This document shows positions 1-12,252 of a stretch of 12,254 nucleotides of DNA, in pieces. The stretch lies in assembly GCA_051294375.1 (NCBI GenBank), contig CM119265.1, positions 469,133 to 481,386 of the forward strand, in the 5' to 3' direction. A program made the position numbers and the translations under genes. The DNA comes from Paraspadella gotoi. Its lineage: Eukaryota > Animalia > Chaetognatha. The first letter of the stretch is position 1, and every line of letters begins with the position of its first letter. The notes under the pieces were generated by a model, which was not told the origin of the DNA, ran no database searches, and saw only the letters and a list, made by a program, of their open reading frames with translations.

Positions 1-1350
1 GTTAACGCCCTGCTCCTTCCTCGGTCCGCCTATCTCGTGGACGCCGACGGCGTCATCATCGATTTGCCGCAGAAGCTCCATGACGCCCTCGACAGCAAAA
101 AGCCACTGTCGCCGAAGGAGGTGAACGCTGCCTTCAAGGACACCCTGCGCATCGTCAACGACTCCGCAAGGGAAATAGCAAACGTCAAGAGCCTCCTACG
201 ACAGCAGACGGCCCGCATCGATACGGTCGTCGCCTCAGTGAATGACGCGAACGCCGCCGTTACCTTGATCAACGCAAAGTTCGACGCCGCTTTCACTGAC
301 CTGAAAGCGATATTCTTAGGCGGCTCCGCNNNNNNNNNNNNNNNNNNNNNNNNNCGCCCCCGACCATACGCTCCGCCCCGTGGCCGTGCCCACGTCAACC
401 ACGACCGCCTCCACCTTAGTGGAACCGCCCAGAAGGCTCTCCGGCCAAGCAATCAAGCTGGAAAAACGCCGCGCGGATGAGAAACCTGAAGAGTTCCTCA
501 TGGGAGTATACAAAACCCTACGCGATTGCGGCGAAGACCCAAAGATCGATGATCAACTCAAGGCCCTTCTCGCCCGCGATGAGGAAGCCAGTGTGTTCAT
601 CGACCCGATAGACGGCAGTCTCTGGCGCGGCCTAAAAGAAATGTGCGAGTCAACGTCGGTTGGGATCTTAGAAGCCTCGGCTAGTATCTCCGTAGTCGTC
701 GACCCCGTCGTCCACTCCAAATTCGGTCTAGCGTTAGTAAACACGGTTTACCGCCACTTCGACTATGTCGCCCGGAAGAACGCCCGGCGATCGCCCGTCA
801 TGTCGCACGCCTACTCACCACGGCGCTGGAACCTTACGCTCCGGGAATCACGGCAGAATCAATGAAGTTCCGCCGCCTTATCGCCGACGGAAATCGACGC
901 GAACTCGGCTCTATCATCGAATGGAAATTGCGCGGCTACCTGAATTCCCGCGGAATGGATGCCTCGTCCCGCCGATTCATCAACTCGGTAAAAGAAGACG
1001 ACCGCCAAGTACTCACGGACTCCCTCCTGAAGAAGGGCCTGTCGGACAAAGATCCCGGCGACAGCGCCAACGCCCTTTACCAAGGCACAATGGTGCAGGA
1101 AGCAAACAACCAAAGGGAGCTCCTGGAAAAGATGGCAAAATCTATGGCAAAGATGGAAAAGGCGATGGCTGAGTCCCGTTCAGCTGAAGAACGGAAATGG
1201 AAACCAGCGCCCTCTCGTGAATTCCGCCGCGAGGACCGCCGCACTGACCGAAGAAATTTTGGCGAGGACAGCCGCTGGACAAACAGGCGTAAAGAACAAC
1301 CTCGAAATGGTAGAACGGGCAGATTTGAAGCGAAGAGGCGTGATTTTCTT
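1..1350 (+). CDS. gag: Gag-like region (fragmented: frame open from base 1, N gap, ORF 380..865, start of ORF 862..2046)
   Basis: Located upstream of the protease; N-terminal coiled-coil-like segment (AREIANVKSLLRQQTARIDTVVASV), helical capsid-like middle, Arg-rich basic segment (REFRREDRRTDRR...GRTGRFEAKRR). No CCHC knuckle. Assignment is mainly positional. Confidence 0.6.
330..354. other. Assembly gap (25 N)
   Basis: Run of 25 N. Confidence 0.99.
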
Positions 1351-2162
1351 GTTGACGCTGACGACGATGATGACATTATTGCTGTGAAAAATAAAAACTG
1401 TGAAAATTACAAATCGTTTTCAGAAGAAAGGGAACAGACAGAACAAAATGTCAAAAGACAAAACAAAATGGCCGAGCTAGCAAAGGAGATGGCCATTAGA
1501 TTACAGAAACTGACTGAAAAGCTCCCTCCGATAAAAAGGATGCCACCCTTAGACGACATCGCGACAAACGCACTGTTGCTAGGCGGTCACAGTGCCCCTA
1601 GCCGAATACGTAAGTTGTTCACACCTTTAAAAACAGTCGCAAAATGCGCCTTAGTTACGGAAATGGCACAAAAAGCAGCTGAAATATGGCCTTCTGCCAA
1701 GGAAGGGAGGAGAAGAGCAATAGTGAAAAGGATCAGATTCTGTGAGAAGCTCTGTACCCCTCCGCCGGAGATTACAGCAACTGTAGAGAAACCGGAAACC
1801 CCTCGTCAAGACGCCGACGCGCTGGCCCGCCTGAGGCAAAAGCCGTCGATGCCACGTCGTGCGTGGCACCGTCTCCGTCCGTCTCCGCACGCACAATCCG
1901 TGCGATGCCGCCGTCTGCTTTACAACCCTACCTACGAGATAGTCGGCACCAGGGATGGCGAGTCTCTGCACAAGGCCACAGTTGACCGAGCTGAAAGAGA
2001 ATGCCATGAGCCAGAAGTATACCCGGCGCCACCTTCGCCCCAATAACCTCCAAAGACGAGGTTCCGCTTCCGCCGCTTCCGGATGCCCCGGTTACGAGCC
2101 CGGCGGCCCCAGGTCCTCCGCCGCCTCGGGACGACACAAATCGCCCAATTGCTTCCGCAAGA
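1351..2162 (+). CDS. Gag-Pol spacer of unknown function (rest of ORF 862..2046 plus Pro-rich linker in the protease frame)
   Basis: ORF 862..2046 stays open; the protease frame is open from 2010 (after TGA 2007-2009) and reads ITSKDEVPLPPLPDAPVTSPAAPGPPPP into the protease. Confidence 0.5.
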
Positions 2163-2435
2163 AACAATTATATTCCAGCGGTTATCAACGGTGCACCCGC
2201 TAGTTGCCTTTACGACACGGGCGCCTCCATAAACACGATTCCCAGTCGTTACGTAGATGAATGGTCGCTCCGCGACAAAATCACCCAAGGCCCGCCGATT
2301 CGAGTCACCACAGGAAATGGAATCGTATTCGTCCGTGATCGCCTAAAGCTAAAAGTCATGTTTCAAAACTGGACCTTAGACACTACCTTTTTTGTGTCCC
2401 CAGACGAAGAAGACCGAGACGTTGTCATCGGCACA
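2163..2435 (+). CDS. pol: Retropepsin-type aspartic protease domain of Pol
   Basis: The frame of ORF 2358..2765 extended upstream reads NNYIPAVINGAPASCLYDTGASINTI...RVTTGNG...DVVIGT. Catalytic DTG at 2214-2222, plus flap and terminal IG motif. Confidence 0.92.
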
Positions 2436-3079
2436 GCAACCACAGACCCAGGCCCACCTCATGAGCTATGGGTCGTCACCCCGTCGGAAAGTGGTCTCCA
2501 AGTCGCCCACATGGCAGGAAAACCAATTACTCACCTCCTCAAAAGAAACAAGCGGCGCTCCGCGCCGCCAGATGGCTGGCCCGTCAATCCGTCGATGCCA
2601 TTTCTGCCATCCCTCTTTTCGCCGAAGCACAAACCCCAGGTCGAGTTTTGGTTAGAGCGGCGAGAGTATATTGGAAAACACTCGCAGATGCGAAATGGAT
2701 CATCGAATCATCAGGCAAGGACGCCGCCTGCTCAGTCGACGGAGCAAACCTCCGCTCAGGCGTAAACCTCCCTGGAACGCCTGGTCGATGGGGCAGCGCA
2801 AAGATCATCATCACAGAAGAGGCCCAGAAACGACTCCAGCTCCCGCCTCAGACACAGCGAAACCAGTCACTGCCGACCTGTCGGGTGAGAAACCAAAATT
2901 AAGGAAAATTAGAAAAACTGATATTCCGCCAACGAAAATAGTAAAACACTCACCCTCAGACACAGAGCTGAGAGCAGTAGAAGAAGCGCGCGACAGACGT
3001 AGACAAAAACATGACGAGCGCGGGAAAGAGGAATTCCTCAGACCGTTTAAGGAGATAGACCCGTCCCTCGCCGACAAAG

Positions 3080-4115
3080 CCCCCATCGTATGGGAGGCCG
3101 TATGGGATTTCCGCGACGTTTTCGGCGATTCCATAAACGACTGCAAAGAAGGTTTTCTAAATTACAAGGTAGATCTAGGCTTCACCATGGATGACTTGCC
3201 TAAGCCACGTTTTGTAAACCAAGGCCCCGTCAAAAAAGCCGCCTTAAAAAGATACCTGGAAGTTTATGAAAAAGCTGGCGTCGTCTCCAGGACATCAGGT
3301 GAGGCTTATTCAAATGCTTTCCTCATAAAGAAGCCAAACCACATCAGCCAAGGGCAAGACAATATGGATGACGAGACTTTCGCGAAACAGTGGCGCTTGA
3401 TCTGCGATTTATCCGCGGTAAATGAAAACATATCGACCTACGCCACAGAACCACAAACGATCTCGGCCATCTTAGAGGAATACAAGCCTCACGAACTCCA
3501 ATGCTCGGTAGACATCCTTGCCTGCTTTCACCAAGTAAACCTGACTGACAACTGTAAACCCATCACCCCTTCGCAGGAGCAGGACATAACTGGGAGATGA
3601 ATAAATTGCCAATGGGCGGAATAAACAGCATAAACGTCCTCCAAGCCATCCTCGATGAAATATTCGCAGACCTCGGCAGAGATGTAAAATCTTTTCTCAT
3701 TTACGTCGATGACCTCATCCTCACAGCTAAAGATCCGGAAGAGATGGCACTCAGACTCCGCGAATTTTTGTCAATTTGTAGAAGAGAAAACGTCGTCCTA
3801 AAGTGGACGAAAAGTGTACTGTTGAGAAAGGACGACATCAAAATACTGGGGTTTAGTATTTCCAAGGATAAATTAAAACCCCAACGTGAAAAGATGGAAC
3901 AGGCCGAACTCAAGTTAAAAGAGTTGAAATCCCAGAAGGACCTACGAGCTCTCCTTGCCTCTCTCAACTACTACCGGTGCTTCACTCACCGCTTTTCCTA
4001 CCTCGCGCAACCACTCCACGCCCTCACCCTGCTTGATAGAAAAGACTTTAAGTTCACCGACGCCCATCGAGCGAGCCTAAACACGTTAATAACTGAAATT
4101 AAATCACCCCAGGCT
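3080..4115 (+). CDS. pol: Reverse transcriptase (split by 1-nt frameshift near 3567)
   Basis: YSNAFLIKKP, WRLICDLSAVN, SVDILACFHQV, (TAF)AGAGHNWEMNKLPMG, IYVDDLI (YVDD 3702-3713), ILGFSI, LNYYRCF: Gypsy RT palm and thumb motifs. Confidence 0.96.
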
Positions 4116-4149
4116 TAAACTTTTTAAACGATGCAAAAATTAAGAATGG

Positions 4150-4526
4150 AGAATACCGTATATATGCTGAGCCAGCACTAGCGCCATGGGCGGCCTCATC
4201 ACAGCCACAGCTGATGGCGTGGAATACCCTTTGTGCTTCCACTCGAAATCCTTCCCCGACGAATACCGCCTCAAACACATAAACATCCTAGAAACTCTCG
4301 CTTTCAACATGATGGTCAGACGCTTTAAGGGATACATATGTGGAAGAAGAGTATCGCTAATTACAGACTCTCAATACTTTAAACGCATCATGGATCTACA
4401 ACATGATAAACAACAGCTCCTACCACCAACGTCCTTCGCTGGATCACGGAAATCCGGCAAGAATGCCACCCACAGGAGATCATACTAGTGAAAAGCGAGG
4501 ATAACCCCGCAGATTTCCTTACCCGC
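4150..4526 (+). CDS. pol: RNase H domain of Pol (frameshifted)
   Basis: Across 1-nt indels: YRIYA(D)ASTSAMGG, FHSKSF, ILETLAF, LITDSQ, LRWITEI, KSEDNPADFLTR: the D-E-D...D RNase H pattern of Gypsy elements. Confidence 0.9.
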
Positions 4527-4639
4527 TTCACTGATCAAGGACAGATCACGCCGCTCGACACCCCCTTTTGGCCAGCAGGATTTGATTGTACAGGACCTAC
4601 GTTCCCGGCTTCTCAGAGTGCCCAATATCCGGAGCGTCG

Positions 4640-5035
4640 TGGCCGGGTCATCTTGAGCTCCACACCGGCGGCGCTCCAACGATAGCCCTCGTCGCCGCCA
4701 CGCTAGGTGTCGATGAAAAATCTTTTCGAAAGAAATTTTTCGAATTTGTACGAAAAGAATTTCCCCAGCGCCAAGCAAACGCCGAACGTTTGTACGGAAA
4801 ACCGAAAACGAAAAATGCAGACGCCTTCATCCGGACGATTTCAGCAAAAGACTGGAACCTGGGACATCCCGAACTCGAATTGCTGGCGGAGATGTCCGGT
4901 ATCTGCATTAAAATATTAGATGAGGATTTCACAGTGCCATCAGGCTGCAAATTCGTTAAAACTTATGGGGAAGAAACAAACCGAACACTCCAGATTTTCG
5001 CACGCTAACGGGTCAGGTCTCCCTCATTCAGGACT
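4640..5035 (+). CDS. OTU-like (ovarian tumour cysteine protease fold) domain inserted in Pol
   Basis: ORF 4586..5008: ALVAATLG...FRKKFFEFVR...FIRTISAKDWNLGHPELELLAEMSGICIKIL...YGE...LQIF, then after a shift HANGSGLPH (His 5025-5027). Matches the OTU layout; the catalytic Cys is not recoverable in frame. Confidence 0.55.
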
Positions 5036-5145
5036 CCCCTCCCGATGCATACCTCCGCGCACTCGCCGGACAAGAAGAATCCGGCGACGAGACCGACGAC
5101 GCCATCGTCGTTACAATAGCGGAGCTCGAGCGACTGAAAAAGGCC

Positions 5146-5169
5146 CCAAAGAAGCGAGGTCGACCAAAA
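5146..5169 (+). other. AT-hook motif (PKKRGRPK) in Pol linker
   Basis: cca aag aag cga ggt cga cca aaa in a frame open from at least 4981 to 5355 that the ORF track does not list; RGRP core flanked by K residues. Confidence 0.65.
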
Positions 5170-5644
5170 ACAATCAAAGCCAAACAAATTGCGGCCGCGA
5201 ATCTCCCTCGAGACACCGTCCTTATTAAATTCAACCCACTTCCGGATGACGAGGAAAACAATGAAAACAGCGAAGAGGCGGCCCCGCTGCCATCACCGCC
5301 CCGCGCCGGCCCTCCGCCTTGCTACAGGACTCGTCACCGCCCTCTCACCAGACCCTAACGCAGCGAGAACCGATATCATCCCAGCCGCCCGCCGCTGGCC
5401 CGCCACGAGGCATCACCGACGACCCCGTCGACCCTCGCCGCACCGCGGGGCCGCCGGCGTCGCCGACCCCGCCATCGGCGAAAAATGACGGCTCGCCTAC
5501 GCCTCGCCCGTCCCAAGTGCCGGATCGGCCAGGAACTCCCCCGCGCAGGATGAAGAGCTTGCTTACGACTCCGCCATCGACGCCTCTCTTGACGTTGACG
5601 CCCGCGATCTCGAAGCCGAGCTCCACGACCCGCTCGATCGCGAC

Positions 5645-6958
5645 GTGCGTCTCCTCCCCCTCCGCTCCAACGTGAAATCCTGGCAACAAAATGAGGAAAC
5701 CATCAAATCCGTTGCAACTATTCTCGCGCACCATGGCACCGACGCCGTCAAGGCCCACTTCCGATCCATCCAAGCCAAGGCGCTAACGAAAATGCAAGCC
5801 TTCCTCGCCGCCATCGCAGATGACTTATCTGTCTCAAACGACGGAATCCTCTGCGTAATCGGTTTCCGCGATGAAACAAGAACTTCGAGATTCATTGTCC
5901 CACAAGACAAATTAAGTGACATAATTCGCCGGATCCATGACTACGTTGGCCACCCAGGGCGCGATCGGACCGCCTACATTGTCGCACAGTACGTGGCGGC
6001 GCCCGGCCTCGTCGCCATGTGCTCAAAAGTCGTCCTAAGCTGCGAACCATGCCGCAAAGCCACCGACGAAATGAGGTTCAACGAAACGGAACCAGGCCCA
6101 ACGCATGCGCTAATCCCTTGGGAGTCCTTGTGTATCGACGTCATGCACCTGCCTCCCAGTGGCGGCTTCCAACACGTCCTCGTTGCATCCGATAAAGCTT
6201 CCGCCTACACGTGGGCGTTGCCGATCCGCCGCGCAGACGCCGCCCATATCATCGGAGCACTCGACAAGGCATCTTCTCCCTTCACGGCTCCTTTCTGGAA
6301 ATAAATTTTGACGGGCAACTTCGCTAAACGGCGCCGAGATGCGCAGCATACTGGATCTACTCAACATGAGCGGGAAGCGTGTCCTCGTCTCGAGAAAGAA
6401 CAGCAACCGCGCAGAGAGAGACATTGGGCGCATCCGACAAGCCCTCAGAAAGGCGCTAAATGACGACCCAAACGGTTGGCTCCCCTCGCTGCCTCACCTC
6501 CTCTTAGCGCTAAACGCCACGCCCATTTCCGGTTGGAAAACTGACATGTCACCTCACGAGCTCCAATTCGCCCACCGACCAAGGATCATCGAACCTCCAG
6601 ACGAAACTCTGTACTCGTCGCTCACCGAGTTCGCCAAACAACGCTCAGATAGACAGGACCACGCCCACGAACGCGTCGCAGCGCAGCGAATCGGCCGCCA
6701 CCGATACACGCACAGGAATAATCGCCTGCGACACCCGAAGCGACTCTCAGTGGGAGACCTCGTGTATGTCCGACGCGACCTCGTCCGCACGGGCGCCGCC
6801 CCCAGCGCGAGCAAGGTAAAATCGGTTTACACCGGTCCACATAAAATCGTCCAGATCGACGGAAACCACTTTAAAGTGGACGTTGGAGGCGCCATTTCGT
6901 TTATCACCGTCGCCGCCTGAAAGCAGTCGATCGCGATTCACAAACTTTCTCTTACTAA
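5645..6958 (+). CDS. pol: Integrase (HHCC zinc finger, DDE core, GPY/F-like C-terminus), frameshifted
   Basis: HDYVGH (5936-5953)...CEPC (6041); CIDVM (D 6137); INFDG (D 6310, alternate frame); NRAER (E 6414); YTGPHKI; after a final shift YHRRRLKAV...stop TAA 6956-6958. No chromodomain seen. Confidence 0.95.
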
Positions 6959-7022
6959 AAGCGTCACCGGCAAATCCTCAAACAGCGAAAGGAAAGCAGA
7001 TAAGAAATGTACAGCAAATCTA

Positions 7023-7069
7023 TCTCTCTCTCTCTCTCTCTCCCTCTCTCCCTCTCTCTCCCTCTCCCC
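7023..7069 (+). repeat. (CT)n-like polypyrimidine tract
   Basis: tctctctctctctctctctccctctctccctctctctccctctcccc. Confidence 0.95.
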
Positions 7070-7070
7070 A

Positions 7071-7077
7071 CTTTCAG
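7071..7077 (+). promoter_or_regulatory. Candidate 3' splice acceptor for an env mRNA
   Basis: CTTTCAG directly after a ~47-nt pyrimidine tract; the next downstream ATG is the env start at 7334. Confidence 0.4.
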
Positions 7078-7216
7078 CCGAACCCTCATCTCTCCTCTTA
7101 ACGCTCAACTCTGACCCACTTTTCCACGAGATACTCTCGCGGCCGGGAAGGGGGTAAGATCCATCAAGCTCTCGCCCCGGCTTATCACTTGCCGGCTGTT
7201 ATCTCAACAACTTTTC

Positions 7217-7239
7217 AAAAAAAAAAAAAAAAAAAAAAA
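7217..7239 (+). repeat. Poly(A) run starting an A-rich leader upstream of env
   Basis: Homopolymer of ~23 A followed by A-rich sequence up to 7333. Confidence 0.9.
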
Positions 7240-7333: not shown

Positions 7334-8750
7334 ATGTCGATTACTAAAATCCTCGCCATCGCTCTAATCATCGCGAGTATCCACCTACTCGAAACCAACG
7401 CCACCTTACCTTTCGATCGAAAAGTTATCCTGGCAAAAATGAGCTACAGAGACAAGTAGTAGTTTACGACTGCAATCAAACATCTGATCACGCCGCCGTA
7501 GCGATAGACGAAGGAAAATGCGAAGAAGCGGGAAAAGTCGAAGAAAGCTTCAGAGAAATAAAAATTATCTATGTGCCGAAAAATTCAGAAACGACGTCAA
7601 AGGCTGCGATCTCACCATCGTCGCCACGGGGAAATACTGTGGCAGATGGTCAATAACCTATCCAAACATCGACGTCATCGATCATTTTTCCATCCGCGAA
7701 GCCAATGTCTAGATCTGCACGCTGGACGAACCATCTCGCTCGACTCCATCCCGATACGCACGTCTGATGACACGGGAGTCTTCCGCCCCATTCGAATGCG
7801 CGGCGCCATGGGAACAATATCGTCACCCATAGGATCGGCACAAACGACGCGGACGGCGCCTGTACAGGGGAAAAATTCAAATTTCATGATCACGCGTATG
7901 AGAGTGAAAACGCAAAACTAATCTCGAACTTAACGCTATATTCGCTCCAAGGTGAAGATCAGCGGAGATGAAACCTCAAAGAACGGCCGCTGCAACCTTC
8001 GCCCAGCGCCAATGTGTTTACCCGGGCGGCATTCTTTGCCTGGGACGACAGCGGCTGCAGGGCGAAGATTGCTTACGAGGGAGGAATATTTCAAAGTCAT
8101 GACGGTTTCATCCGGACGCCAACGCTAGCAGACAGGCGTCGCGCGCTAGGCAAATGCGCGCCGGCCGAAGGAACCCCTTGCAACGATAACAACATCGCCT
8201 CTTTCGCTGGCAAGCCAGGCTGCTGGTCCCGCTGCGCCATTTTCCTCCACCGAAACAACAACGCAGGCGATCACGCGGAAACCATCGAACGCTGTCGCAT
8301 CGCCTGCGCCCCGCTTCCAAGCGGCGCCTTCACCCTCCGCATCGCAGGCAAAGAAGAAACACTTCGTGGCTGCAGGTCCCGCGCGGCGGCCACCTCGTCG
8401 CCGCATTTCTTTGTGACGTCACAAAGTGCCTCAACGTCGCTCGACGTCGATCCTTCAACACTCAGTTCGCTAGTCGAAATATCATCGAGGCTCGCTGAAC
8501 GCAACCAAGACCGCCTCGACCGACTCACGGACGCCCTGCGCCGCGATTGTGCGTTGCAAAAAACGCAAGCGGCGAGATTGCCGCCGAACGCGCCACCTCT
8601 CGCCCGCCTCCACTACCTTCATTGGCAAAGGCCAATGGCGATCCTCCAGGGGAACTCCTCCTGACGGCGACGTGCGAGCGCACGCTGGCGCTGCGCCGCC
8701 AAACGGACGGCTGTTTACCACGATCTCCCCATTAGCTACAAGGGGTCACG
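7334..8750 (+). CDS. env: Env-like class III fusion glycoprotein (chuvirus G / herpes gB-like), frameshifted, C-terminus missing
   Basis: ATG 7334 gives signal peptide MSITKILAIALIIASIHLLETNA. Stitched frames give VYDCNQT (7465-7473), GKC, GCDLTIVATGKYCGRWS, QCLDLHAG, GTNDADGACTG, GRCNL..QC..FAWDDSGCRAKIAYEG, FTLR...GC...TSSPHFFV, long helix ending RRDCALQK, GELLLTATCER...DGC(Y)HDLPI. N-glycosylation sequons NQT and NLT. No TM segment before the break. Confidence 0.8.
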
Positions 8751-8893
8751 CCGCGTTCCGCATGCCGTGTTCCATCATGTGGTAAATGTCGTCGGGTTTT
8801 AGCTTGGCATGAGATAAAAGGTTAGGGTTAGGGCAAAAAAAATGGCCTGCTGTAAATCATCGCAGAGGAATCAAGACTCCAGAATCGAAATCG

Positions 8894-8918: not shown

Positions 8919-8939
8919 TAATGTCGCACAATGACTCAA

Positions 8940-9075
8940 AACGTTGTGCGCCACGCTCAACCCACGAGATCCGCACTCCGCCTTAGGTTGGAAAATAACC
9001 GCCCAGAAACGGTCTCTCCGGCCAGCAATTAAGCTGGGTAAAAACGCCGCGCGGATGAGAAACCTTGGAAAGACG
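8940..9075 (+). repeat. Insertion-riddled second copy of gag segment ~380-500
   Basis: Shares accgcccagaa, ctctccggcca, aagctgg, aaaaacgccgcgcggatgagaaacct with 424-487, with extra inserted bases. Confidence 0.85.
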
Positions 9076-10614: not shown

Positions 10615-12252
10615 TTACAAANNNNNNNNNNATCTAGGCTTAGGCCTGACAGCGGGGATTTTGTTTTCTGTTTTTGTGGCGTTGTTGTTTTTTGTTTCTG
10701 TGTCATTAGAGTTAATGTTATTGTTTTCCCCCGCTTGGCGTTTTATCAACTCTTTCAGAACAATGGCGTAGGTCGGGCGATAAGGCTTATTCGAAAAGTT
10801 CTCCGGTGTTGGCCTCGAAAACCTACACGTTGGCTCAATTCTCAGGTTTTCGTTATCGCTCGGTTGAGCTTGTTCTTTAAGCGAATGAGTCGAATTGCTT
10901 GTCGATCGATTTGGCGGTGTTGCTGGAGGCCTAGGTTCCTGAAATGATGGGAGTGGGTCGGGGGGGGGTTGGGGTAGAGGGGAGGAGGGTGAAGGAAGCG
11001 GAGGAGGAATCGACGGAGGAGGAGAGGCCGCTCTCAGGTGCTGCCTATGAGTAGTCGATAGATCTGAAACTTGATTTTTCGATCGAGTAGTTCTTGAAGT
11101 TTGAGGCGGGTTTCTTGTTCTCGGTCCTGGTCGGCGGCCTGGTGGTCTCTCTTCGCGCGGTTCTGGGTCATCAATTTGCCTGTCGTCCTCGCTGACCCAG
11201 GCTGGCTTGACCCTGGCGATATTGACGGTTTCGTGGCCTTTGCTGGGGATGTCGATCGTCATGTTGATGTTGTTGCGGTGTACAACCCGGTAGGGACCTT
11301 CATAGGGGGGAACAAGAGGAGGATTAACGCCGGCCCTTTTAACGAATACATACTTGGCTGTATTTAAGTTTGCAGGTATGTGAATCGCCGGTTGTCGATG
11401 GGCCGATGTCTGAGTAGGCTGGAGTCTTGCTACTTCCACCCGGAGTCTTGAAAGTTGTGCTCTTCTTTGTCGATTGAGGTTTTCGTCGTTGACTTGGGCG
11501 TCACCTAGCATTGAGCCTGGGACGCCAATTCCTTCGCCGAAGACCAGATCAGCTGATGACGCTCCAATGTCTTCCTTCACTGTTGTTCTTATTGCGAGTA
11601 GTGTGAGAGGCAATTTCCAGAACCAATTTTGTTTTTCATCGTTTGCTAGCGCCATTAGGGATTCCTTGAGCCTTCGATGAAATCTCTCTACCATCCCATT
11701 GGATTGTGGATGGTAAGCTGTTGTTGTCTGGTTCTTTATGCCCCAGGTTTTGGTCAGCTGTTGCCATAGATTTGAGGTAAATTGACTACCTCTGTCCGTT
11801 GTTATCACAGATGGAGTCCCGAAGATACTAATCCAATTTAGGCTTAGTGCATCTAGGATGGTCGGGGTTAGAGTATCTTGCAGAGGTATTGCGGCCGGCC
11901 AACGCGAGAATCTGTCAACTATTGTCAACAGATGTGAGAATCCGTTGGATTTGGGCATCTTGACGAGGTCGATGTTGAGATGCTGGAATCTCCGCGCTGG
12001 AACCTTGAAGTCGCCTATCTCTGGGACGGTATGCTTAGAGACCTTGGCGCGCTGGCAGTCTAGACAATCTCTTGCCCAGCGGGAGACGTCTTGGCGCATC
12101 CCGGTCCACACAAACTTGGCGGCGACGGCTTTCCGTGTGGCCTCGACTCCCGGATGGCCGAGGCCATGGATAACGTCGAAGATTTTGCGCCGCCATGAAT
12201 TTGGAACGAATGGGCGTGCCGGTCCATTGGATATGTCCGCGAGCAGTTCCTG
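10615..12252 (-). CDS. pol: Pol C-terminus: Gypsy integrase (CsRN1-like) with Pro-rich tail; ORF continues beyond the window
   Basis: Frame open to the window edge: DISNGPARPFVP..RRKIFDVIHGLGHPG...KFVW...CLDCQRAK, HLNIDLV, DRFSRWPAAIP, TTDRGSQF, YHPQSNGMVER, YEGPYRV. The stop position lies just past a 10-N gap, so it is uncertain. Confidence 0.96.
   Translation of the reverse strand, partial: QELLADISNGPARPFVPNSWRRKIFDVIHGLGHPGVEATRKAVAAKFVWTGMRQDVSRWARDCLDCQRAKVSKHTVPEIGDFKVPARRFQHLNIDLVKMPKSNGFSHLLTIVDRFSRWPAAIPLQDTLTPTILDALSLNWISIFGTPSVITTDRGSQFTSNLWQQLTKTWGIKNQTTTAYHPQSNGMVERFHRRLKESLMALANDEKQNWFWKLPLTLLAIRTTVKEDIGASSADLVFGEGIGVPGSMLGDAQVNDENLNRQRRAQLSRLRVEVARLQPTQTSAHRQPAIHIPANLNTAKYVFVKRAGVNPPLVPPYEGPYRVVHRNNINMTIDIPSKGHETVNIARVKPAWVSEDDRQIDDPEPREERPPGRRPGPRTRNPPQTSRTTRSKNQVSDLSTTHRQHLRAASPPPSIPPPLPSPSSPLPQPPPDPLPSFQEPRPPATPPNRSTSNSTHSLKEQAQPSDNENLRIEPTCRFSRPTPENFSNKPYRPTYAIVLKELIKRQAGENNNINSNDTETKNNNATKTENKIPAVRPKPRXXXXL
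10622..10631. other. Assembly gap (10 N)
   Basis: Run of 10 N. Confidence 0.99.

What the first reader, a model, noticed from the sequence alone, without database searches (positions are those of the whole stretch)
4640..5035. OTU deubiquitinase-like domain between RNase H and integrase
Seen: ~1.1 kb separates the RNase H end (ADFLTR, ~4526) from the integrase region, far longer than usual. Its first part has the OTU layout: helix ALVAATLG, xxRxxxxxFV helix, 'FIRTISAKDWNLGHPELELLAEMSGICIKI' (cf. WGgxxElxaLa....I.V), then 'YGE...LQIF/HANGSGLPH'; restoring one T in cattca would give the typical H-F. No in-frame Cys is readable at the expected nucleophile site (~4665-4690, a frameshifted patch; AGC at 4684 is one base from TGC). 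Known: OTU domains act as immune-evasion DUBs in nairoviruses and arteriviruses and occur in some Ginger and Helitron-type elements. Inference: an active or pseudo-DUB that protects Pol/IN from ubiquitin-dependent defence or processes the polyprotein.
Basis: partly seen in the sequence, partly recalled or inferred. Interest (0 to 1): 0.8.

Follow-up and report, generated by a model that had tools for sequence, protein, structure and literature searches.

The report
Dead deubiquitinase fold inside retrotransposon Pol
A virus-like jumping gene carries, between two enzymes of its copying-and-integration protein, a conserved domain predicted to fold like a ubiquitin-removing (OTU) enzyme but lacking both catalytic residues in every relative found, so it likely works as a docking or scaffold module rather than as an enzyme.

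Summary
The domain is real and has the OTU fold, but it is a pseudo-enzyme. The window is an error-rich copy of a Ty3/gypsy-type element with an env-like ORF. The stretch 4634-5037 has relatives at 28-55% identity; three also carry the RNase H tail or its end. A model of an intact relative (pTM 0.70) matches only OTU structures: 40 of 40 Foldseek rows, and the top 30 VIA rows with best Z 9.1. The catalytic Cys position holds Pro or Leu (0 of 10 Cys) and the His position Val or Cys (0 of 8 His). The domain is about as conserved as RNase H, so it is likely kept for a non-catalytic role, like the dead OTU in adenovirus polymerase. Ubiquitin binding is untested. The scan noted OTU domains in other retroelements before, on other DNA and at other positions.

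The parts
685..2046 (+). gag-like ORF region (upstream piece 320-865; element start lost at an N gap)
   Evidence: position before the protease; no Pfam hit under E 0.01; inferred
2170..2435 (+). aspartic protease (DTGA at 2214)
   Evidence: Pfam Asp_protease_2 E 8e-7
3050..4118 (+). reverse transcriptase (YVDD at 3702), broken in the window near 3567; start approximate
   Evidence: Pfam RVT_1 E 4e-10; contigs differ in length at 3567
4171..4526 (+). RNase H, ending ADFLTR; broken in the window near 4424
   Evidence: Pfam RT_RNaseH E 3e-8
4634..5037 (+). OTU-fold domain without catalytic residues; broken in this copy near 4994 (and upstream near 4594)
   Evidence: 38% identity over 118 aa to P0012; the P0012 model matches OTU structures; Pfam OTU in 5 of 17 relatives, best E 2.3e-4
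4676..4678 (+). catalytic-Cys position, occupied by Pro
   Evidence: model residue 18 = OTULIN C129 and OTUD2 C160 by aligned ranges (PMC3705208); global hhalign agrees; 0 of 10 rows Cys
4850..4873 (+). variable-loop block DWxLGHPE, start of the best conserved segment (59% identity, other blocks 26-46%)
5017..5019 (+). catalytic-His position, occupied by Val
   Evidence: model residue 133 by range ends (His numbers of the solved OTUs recalled, OTUD3 His loop 178-181 from PMC3705208); 0 of 8 rows His at 126-138
5040..5670 (+). acidic / Pro-rich linker with a basic PKKRGRPK motif at 5146-5169; broken near 5320
   Evidence: sequence; 5032-5316 and 5489-5899 have no blastp hit to any relative; no Pfam AT-hook hit
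5897..6920 (+). integrase: H2C2 zinc finger, core, C-terminal GPH motif at 6834
   Evidence: Pfam Integrase_H2C2 E 3e-10, rve E 9e-4, SH3_Tf2-1 E 0.2
7334..8785 (+). env-like ORF, Cys-rich with a signal-peptide-like start, broken at many places in the window
   Evidence: no family hit, so env is inferred from position and look

Best explanation
The element's Pol polyprotein carries, between RNase H and integrase, a conserved domain predicted to have the OTU deubiquitinase fold but lacking the catalytic Cys and His, and it likely acts as a non-catalytic docking or scaffold module. Shown: position, lack of both residues, conservation like that of RNase H. Predicted: the fold, on an intact relative. 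Inferred: an ancestor of this gypsy lineage captured an OTU deubiquitinase, and catalysis became dispensable because the element's aspartic protease does the processing. The folded domain was then kept because it holds RT-RNase H or integrase to a partner in the particle or integration complex, as proposed for the inactivated OTU of adenovirus and bidnavirus polymerases. Which Pol product it stays on after cleavage, and its partner, are unknown.
For: Fold: Foldseek 40 of 40 rows OTU-type, E 1.3e-3 to 0.09. VIA against 48,161 chains: ranks 1-30 OTU-type, best Z 9.1, rmsd 3.7 over 126 of 143 residues; first other fold Z 3.6. Pfam OTU is the top family, 5 of 17 members. Dead: Cys slot Pro 8, Leu 2, Cys 0 of 10; His slot Val 6, Cys 2, His 0 of 8. 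In frame with Pol: the four frame changes between 4400 and 5500 coincide with length differences in contigs of all 4 runs laid, and P0001, P0014 run from RNase H into the domain in one ORF. Constraint: against P0014 the domain is 44% identical over 111 aa, RNase H core 56% over 68, RNase H tail 41% over 58, while the linker has no hit. Precedent: inactivated vOTU is never lost from adenovirid and bidnavirid pPolB and is proposed to be structural (PMC11161782, passages).
Against: No partner or function was tested. The window's own protein was not folded, and its ORF has no Pfam hit. No Foldseek row reaches E 0.001, and Z 9.1 is only just above the tool's stated background of 7-8. A first, shallower model (pTM 0.49) gave weak matches. 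The relatives fall into only about three independent groups by identity, many on short, possibly decayed contigs. The best conserved block lines the ubiquitin-tail groove in active OTUs (recalled), which also fits the ubiquitin-reader rival. No active ancestor was found.
Confidence: 0.52

Rival explanations
1. Ubiquitin reader or shield: the dead OTU still binds ubiquitin or a ubiquitin-like tag. It would mask ubiquitinated Pol from host turnover or, with the nearby PKKRGRPK motif, tether integrase to ubiquitinated chromatin.
For: The variable-loop/helix block is the best conserved part (59%). An aromatic residue upstream of the His loop is kept in 5 of 7 relatives; such a residue contacts the ubiquitin tail in OTUs (PMC3705208, passage). 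Ubiquitin-handling domains recur in transposons (PMC2836005, passages).
Against: That block is also structural core. The Cys loop appears one residue shorter and the His loop is remodelled. The closest viral precedent is read as structural (PMC11161782).
Confidence: 0.27
2. Neutral relic: a dead captured domain that survives only as an in-frame spacer.
For: Both catalytic residues are gone; the bridge between RNase H and integrase tolerates varied content (PMC13524379, section 7).
Against: Identity to relatives matches that of RNase H while the adjacent linker has diverged beyond detection; 27 positions are kept in at least 90% of covering rows and in the window.
Confidence: 0.12
3. Re-wired protease that uses other residues: the invariant His of the GHPE block (window 4865) and the Cys of the GCK motif (window 4946).
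For: His 14 of 14 and Cys 12 of 13 covering rows.
Against: They lie in the variable loop and in a beta-hairpin, not at the helix start and strand where OTU catalysis occurs (secondary structure, register).
Confidence: 0.06
4. First reader's active DUB, with the Cys hidden by sequencing errors.
For: The window has many indel errors. One relative (P0001) has a Cys two residues before the slot.
Against: No indel or substitution is listed at 4625-4993; 0 of 10 rows have Cys at the slot and 0 of 8 have His; the proposed His is off-frame.
Confidence: 0.03

Closest known systems
Inactivated vOTU domain of adenovirid and bidnavirid protein-primed DNA polymerases (PMC11161782; passages seen)
   Same: OTU fold embedded in a replication polyprotein, catalytic residues replaced across the lineage, domain retained
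   Different: Here it lies in a Ty3/gypsy Pol between RNase H and integrase, both residues are lost, and no active ancestor is known
Ginger1 transposases and Helitron proteins with OTU (PMC2836005; passages seen)
   Same: OTU domain fused to a gypsy-related integrase (Ginger1) in a mobile element
   Different: Those are DNA transposons; in Ginger1 the OTU is C-terminal to the integrase. This is a retroelement, the domain is N-terminal to integrase and is dead
Cellular and viral OTU deubiquitinases (yeast Otu2/Otu1, OTUD1-3, nairovirus vOTU)
   Same: Best structural matches, Z 7.5-9.1 over 120-128 residues
   Different: 7-17% identity; no catalytic Cys or His
FAM105A/OTULINL pseudo-deubiquitinase (PMC3705208, PMC10318531; passages seen)
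   Same: OTU fold lacking catalytic residues (Z 6.2)
   Different: Larger OTULIN-type cellular protein; not mobile; no specific relationship shown
env-carrying Ty3/gypsy elements and their RNase H-integrase bridge domains (PMC13524379; sections 7 and 8, passages, supplements searched)
   Same: gag-pol-env layout; extra folded domains in the bridge
   Different: Bridge domains described there are mini or pseudo RNase H types; OTU is not named in text or 7 supplements. Its Figure 6 outliers could not be viewed

Membership tests
OTU superfamily (fold) | [quoted passage not shown] | tested here: met
   model of relative P0012
OTU superfamily (fold) | Pfam PF02338 profile match | tested here: inconclusive
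   window ORF no hit; 5 of 17 relatives hit, best E 2.3e-4; the one score shown is 17.1 bits against a cut-off of 23.3
Active OTU deubiquitinases | catalytic Cys at the start of helix 1 | tested here: not met
   0 of 10 rows; Pro 8, Leu 2
Active OTU deubiquitinases | catalytic His at the start of the last strand | tested here: not met
   0 of 8 rows have His in model positions 126-138
Active OTU deubiquitinases | isopeptidase activity | not testable with these tools
   needs Ub-AMC or probe assay
OTU pseudo-deubiquitinases | OTU fold with catalytic residues replaced across the family | tested here: met
Ty3/gypsy LTR retrotransposons | domain order protease, RT, RNase H, integrase | tested here: met
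Ty3/gypsy LTR retrotransposons | flanking LTRs | tested here: inconclusive
   no long direct repeat; both ends run into N gaps or a junction near 8785
Ty3/gypsy LTR retrotransposons | placement in an RT phylogeny | not tested
   no reference set held; nearest integrase hit is a mollusc gypsy-type Pol at 35%
env-carrying gypsy (errantivirus in the operational sense) | third ORF for a fusion glycoprotein | tested here: inconclusive
   signal-peptide-like, Cys-rich ORF after pol, no family hit
Ginger1 DNA transposons | no RT; OTU C-terminal to the integrase | tested here: not met
   RT present; domain precedes integrase (PMC2836005)

The most novel reading that the evidence does not exclude
A lineage of env-carrying gypsy elements turned a captured deubiquitinase into a ubiquitin reader built into Pol. 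It would steer integrase to ubiquitinated chromatin or cloak the element's proteins from ubiquitin-based defence: a new kind of retroelement targeting or counter-defence module, parallel to the chromodomain of chromoviruses.
Probability: 0.25. Interest if true: 0.8.

Novelty: new variant of a known kind. Interest (0 to 1): 0.5.

Why it matters
OTU domains are known passengers of DNA transposons, polintons and RNA viruses. I found no report of one inside a Ty3/gypsy Pol (paper searches; open-access library only). A lineage-wide dead OTU there extends the adenovirus pattern (capture, loss of catalysis, retention) to retroelements. It gives a small, expressible domain on which to test what pseudo-deubiquitinases do for mobile elements, and names a fold for otherwise unannotated RNase H-integrase bridge sequence.

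Tried and rejected
No host genome is held, so copies could not be counted. The ESM Atlas gave no answer. Sequence searches of PDB gave no OTU hit. Longer-protein search with the domain: 0 of 199 candidates, so no full-length Pol relative was obtained. Locus scans found none or four chance matches L001-L004 in unrelated ORFs. P0007 and P0010 (repetitive, weak) were dropped from all alignments; the N-terminal part of P0009 was left out of A2 and A4. First model (P0002, pTM 0.49): 27 of 43 Foldseek rows OTU-type but none under E 0.1, and VIA was dominated by helix matches; the viral library gave no significant row. Complex prediction with a viral-contig ubiquitin: no verdict (score 0.00, alignment not used), used neither for nor against. 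No RNA holder listed. The lack of listed variants at 4625-5042 was considered as a sign of selection and rejected: the longest contig has 18 differences in 3941 bases, so none in about 370 bases is unremarkable. The resemblance of the last hairpin to the start of ubiquitin is treated as coincidence, because that hairpin belongs to the OTU match. The FAM105A paper could not be read.

Full report
Context. The window holds a Ty3/gypsy-type element on the + strand: gag-like ORF, aspartic protease, RT, RNase H, a long bridge, integrase and an env-like ORF. The host genome is not held. Nine runs of one organism from three studies hold the stretch; one may be the window's own source. The assembly is error-rich. 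Between 4400 and 5500 the contigs of all 4 runs laid differ in length from the window at four places (near 4424, 4594, 4994, 5320), and these are where the reading frame changes. The breaks are therefore likely errors or peculiarities of this copy, and the domain is likely part of one Pol ORF. Relatives P0001 and P0014 run from RNase H into the domain without a break.

Observation. The spacer and the quoted motifs are there. Two details are wrong. No indel or substitution is listed between 4625 and 4993, and long pieces from all three studies bridge 4665-4690 (76 pieces not shown). So the expected nucleophile site is read correctly and holds G-G-A-P, with Pro at 4676-4678.

Relatives. phmmer over 1.84 billion representatives gave 10 hits; 8 were kept and 2 repetitive ones dropped. 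A profile search added 8 more. All are unnamed or hypothetical proteins on short JGI or ENA contigs, 28-55% identical to the window, and they form about two groups besides the window. No full-length Pol was retrieved, and no related locus.

Fold. The window's ORF alone has no Pfam hit. Pfam OTU is the leading family among relatives: 5 of 17, best E 2.3e-4. A profile of 12 canonical OTUs from viral contigs (11 of 12 confirmed by Pfam) ranks the window's ORF first of 104. Ten of 17 rows beat all 200 of their shuffles, and 7 did not. Profile-profile comparison gives E 6e-4 at probability 29%. A first model with 9 rows was poor (pTM 0.49) and matched weakly. The second, of P0012 with 18 rows, reached pTM 0.70. 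All 40 Foldseek rows shown are OTU-type, with E 1.3e-3 to 0.09 and none under 1e-3. Against 48,161 chains, ranks 1-30 are OTU-type, best yeast Otu2 at Z 9.1, rmsd 3.7, 126 aligned; the first other fold scores 3.6. For a few entries the OTU label is recalled rather than in the title. I put the fold at about 95%.

Active site. The aligned ranges place model residue 18 on OTULIN C129 (named in the entry title) and OTUD2 C160 (PMC3705208, passages), assuming no gap in the first 14 residues. Recalled numbers for OTUD1, OTUD3, OTUD5, OTUB1, OTUB2 and the CCHFV OTU give the same position, and global hhalign agrees. That column is Pro in 8 and Leu in 2 of 10 rows. The range ends place the catalytic His on model residue 133 (His numbers recalled; the OTUD3 His loop 178-181 is in PMC3705208). 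That column is Val in 6 and Cys in 2 of 8 rows, and no row has His from 126 to 138. One invariant His (14 of 14) and one near-invariant Cys (12 of 13) exist elsewhere, in the variable loop and a hairpin; their distance could not be measured.

Constraint. Against P0014 the domain is 44% identical over 111 residues, RNase H core 56% over 68 and RNase H tail 41% over 58. The linker behind it finds no relative, although P0002 spans that region. The variable-loop/helix block is best kept (59%; others 26-46%).

Mechanism. Best reading (0.52): a captured OTU that lost catalysis and is kept as a docking or scaffold module of Pol. PMC11161782 (passages) describes the same course for adenovirid and bidnavirid polymerases, where the inactive vOTU is never lost and is thought structural. 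Rivals: ubiquitin reader or shield (0.27), neutral relic (0.12), re-wired protease (0.06), active DUB hidden by errors (0.03). Capture, partner and role are inferred; nothing here tests binding.

Known and new. OTU domains occur in Ginger1 and Helitron proteins (PMC2836005, passages) and in polinton polymerases. Cellular pseudo-OTUs exist (PMC3705208, PMC10318531, passages). A survey of env-carrying gypsy elements describes only RNase H-like bridge domains and does not name OTU in text or 7 supplements (PMC13524379), but its figures could not be seen. A paper on tunicate Tor elements does not name OTU either (PMC4402516, passages). Seven searches of the open-access library (listings only, except the papers named and PMC9940879, passages, irrelevant) showed no OTU inside a gypsy Pol; subscription papers and Repbase were not searched. 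Earlier scan notes report OTU domains in other retroelements at other positions (unchecked) and none like this sequence.

Verdict. A real, conserved, catalytically dead OTU-fold domain in the RNase H-integrase bridge of a gypsy-type Pol: a new variant of a known kind, interest 0.5.

Noticed in passing
window 5146-5169: Basic PKKRGRPK motif in the linker behind the OTU-fold domain; looks like an AT-hook or nuclear localisation signal (recalled pattern); no Pfam hit.
   Followed up: partly
window 7334-8785: env-like ORF with a signal-peptide-like start and a YDC motif recalling gB/chuvirus-type glycoproteins (recalled); broken at many places in the window; contigs continue beyond 8785 with other sequence.
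   Followed up: partly
window 2435-3050: About 200 codons without a Pfam hit between protease and RT, a second unusually long spacer in this Pol.
   Followed up: no
window 10615-12252 (-): Integrase of a second, different gypsy element (Pfam rve E 3e-17) with a Pro-rich tail.
   Followed up: no
window 8921-9065: Noisy second copy of part of the gag region near 400-487 (26-nt exact repeat), beside an N gap; probably an assembly artefact.
   Followed up: no
window 804-1169, 3043-3080, 4273-4471: Contigs 85-90% alike with loose ends show sister families of the element in the same runs; whether they carry the domain is unknown.
   Followed up: no
window 4982-5031: The last hairpin of the domain resembles the first hairpin of ubiquitin; probably a shared turn motif.
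   Followed up: partly
window 7012-7072 and 7215-7238: TC microsatellite and A run between pol and the env-like ORF.
   Followed up: no
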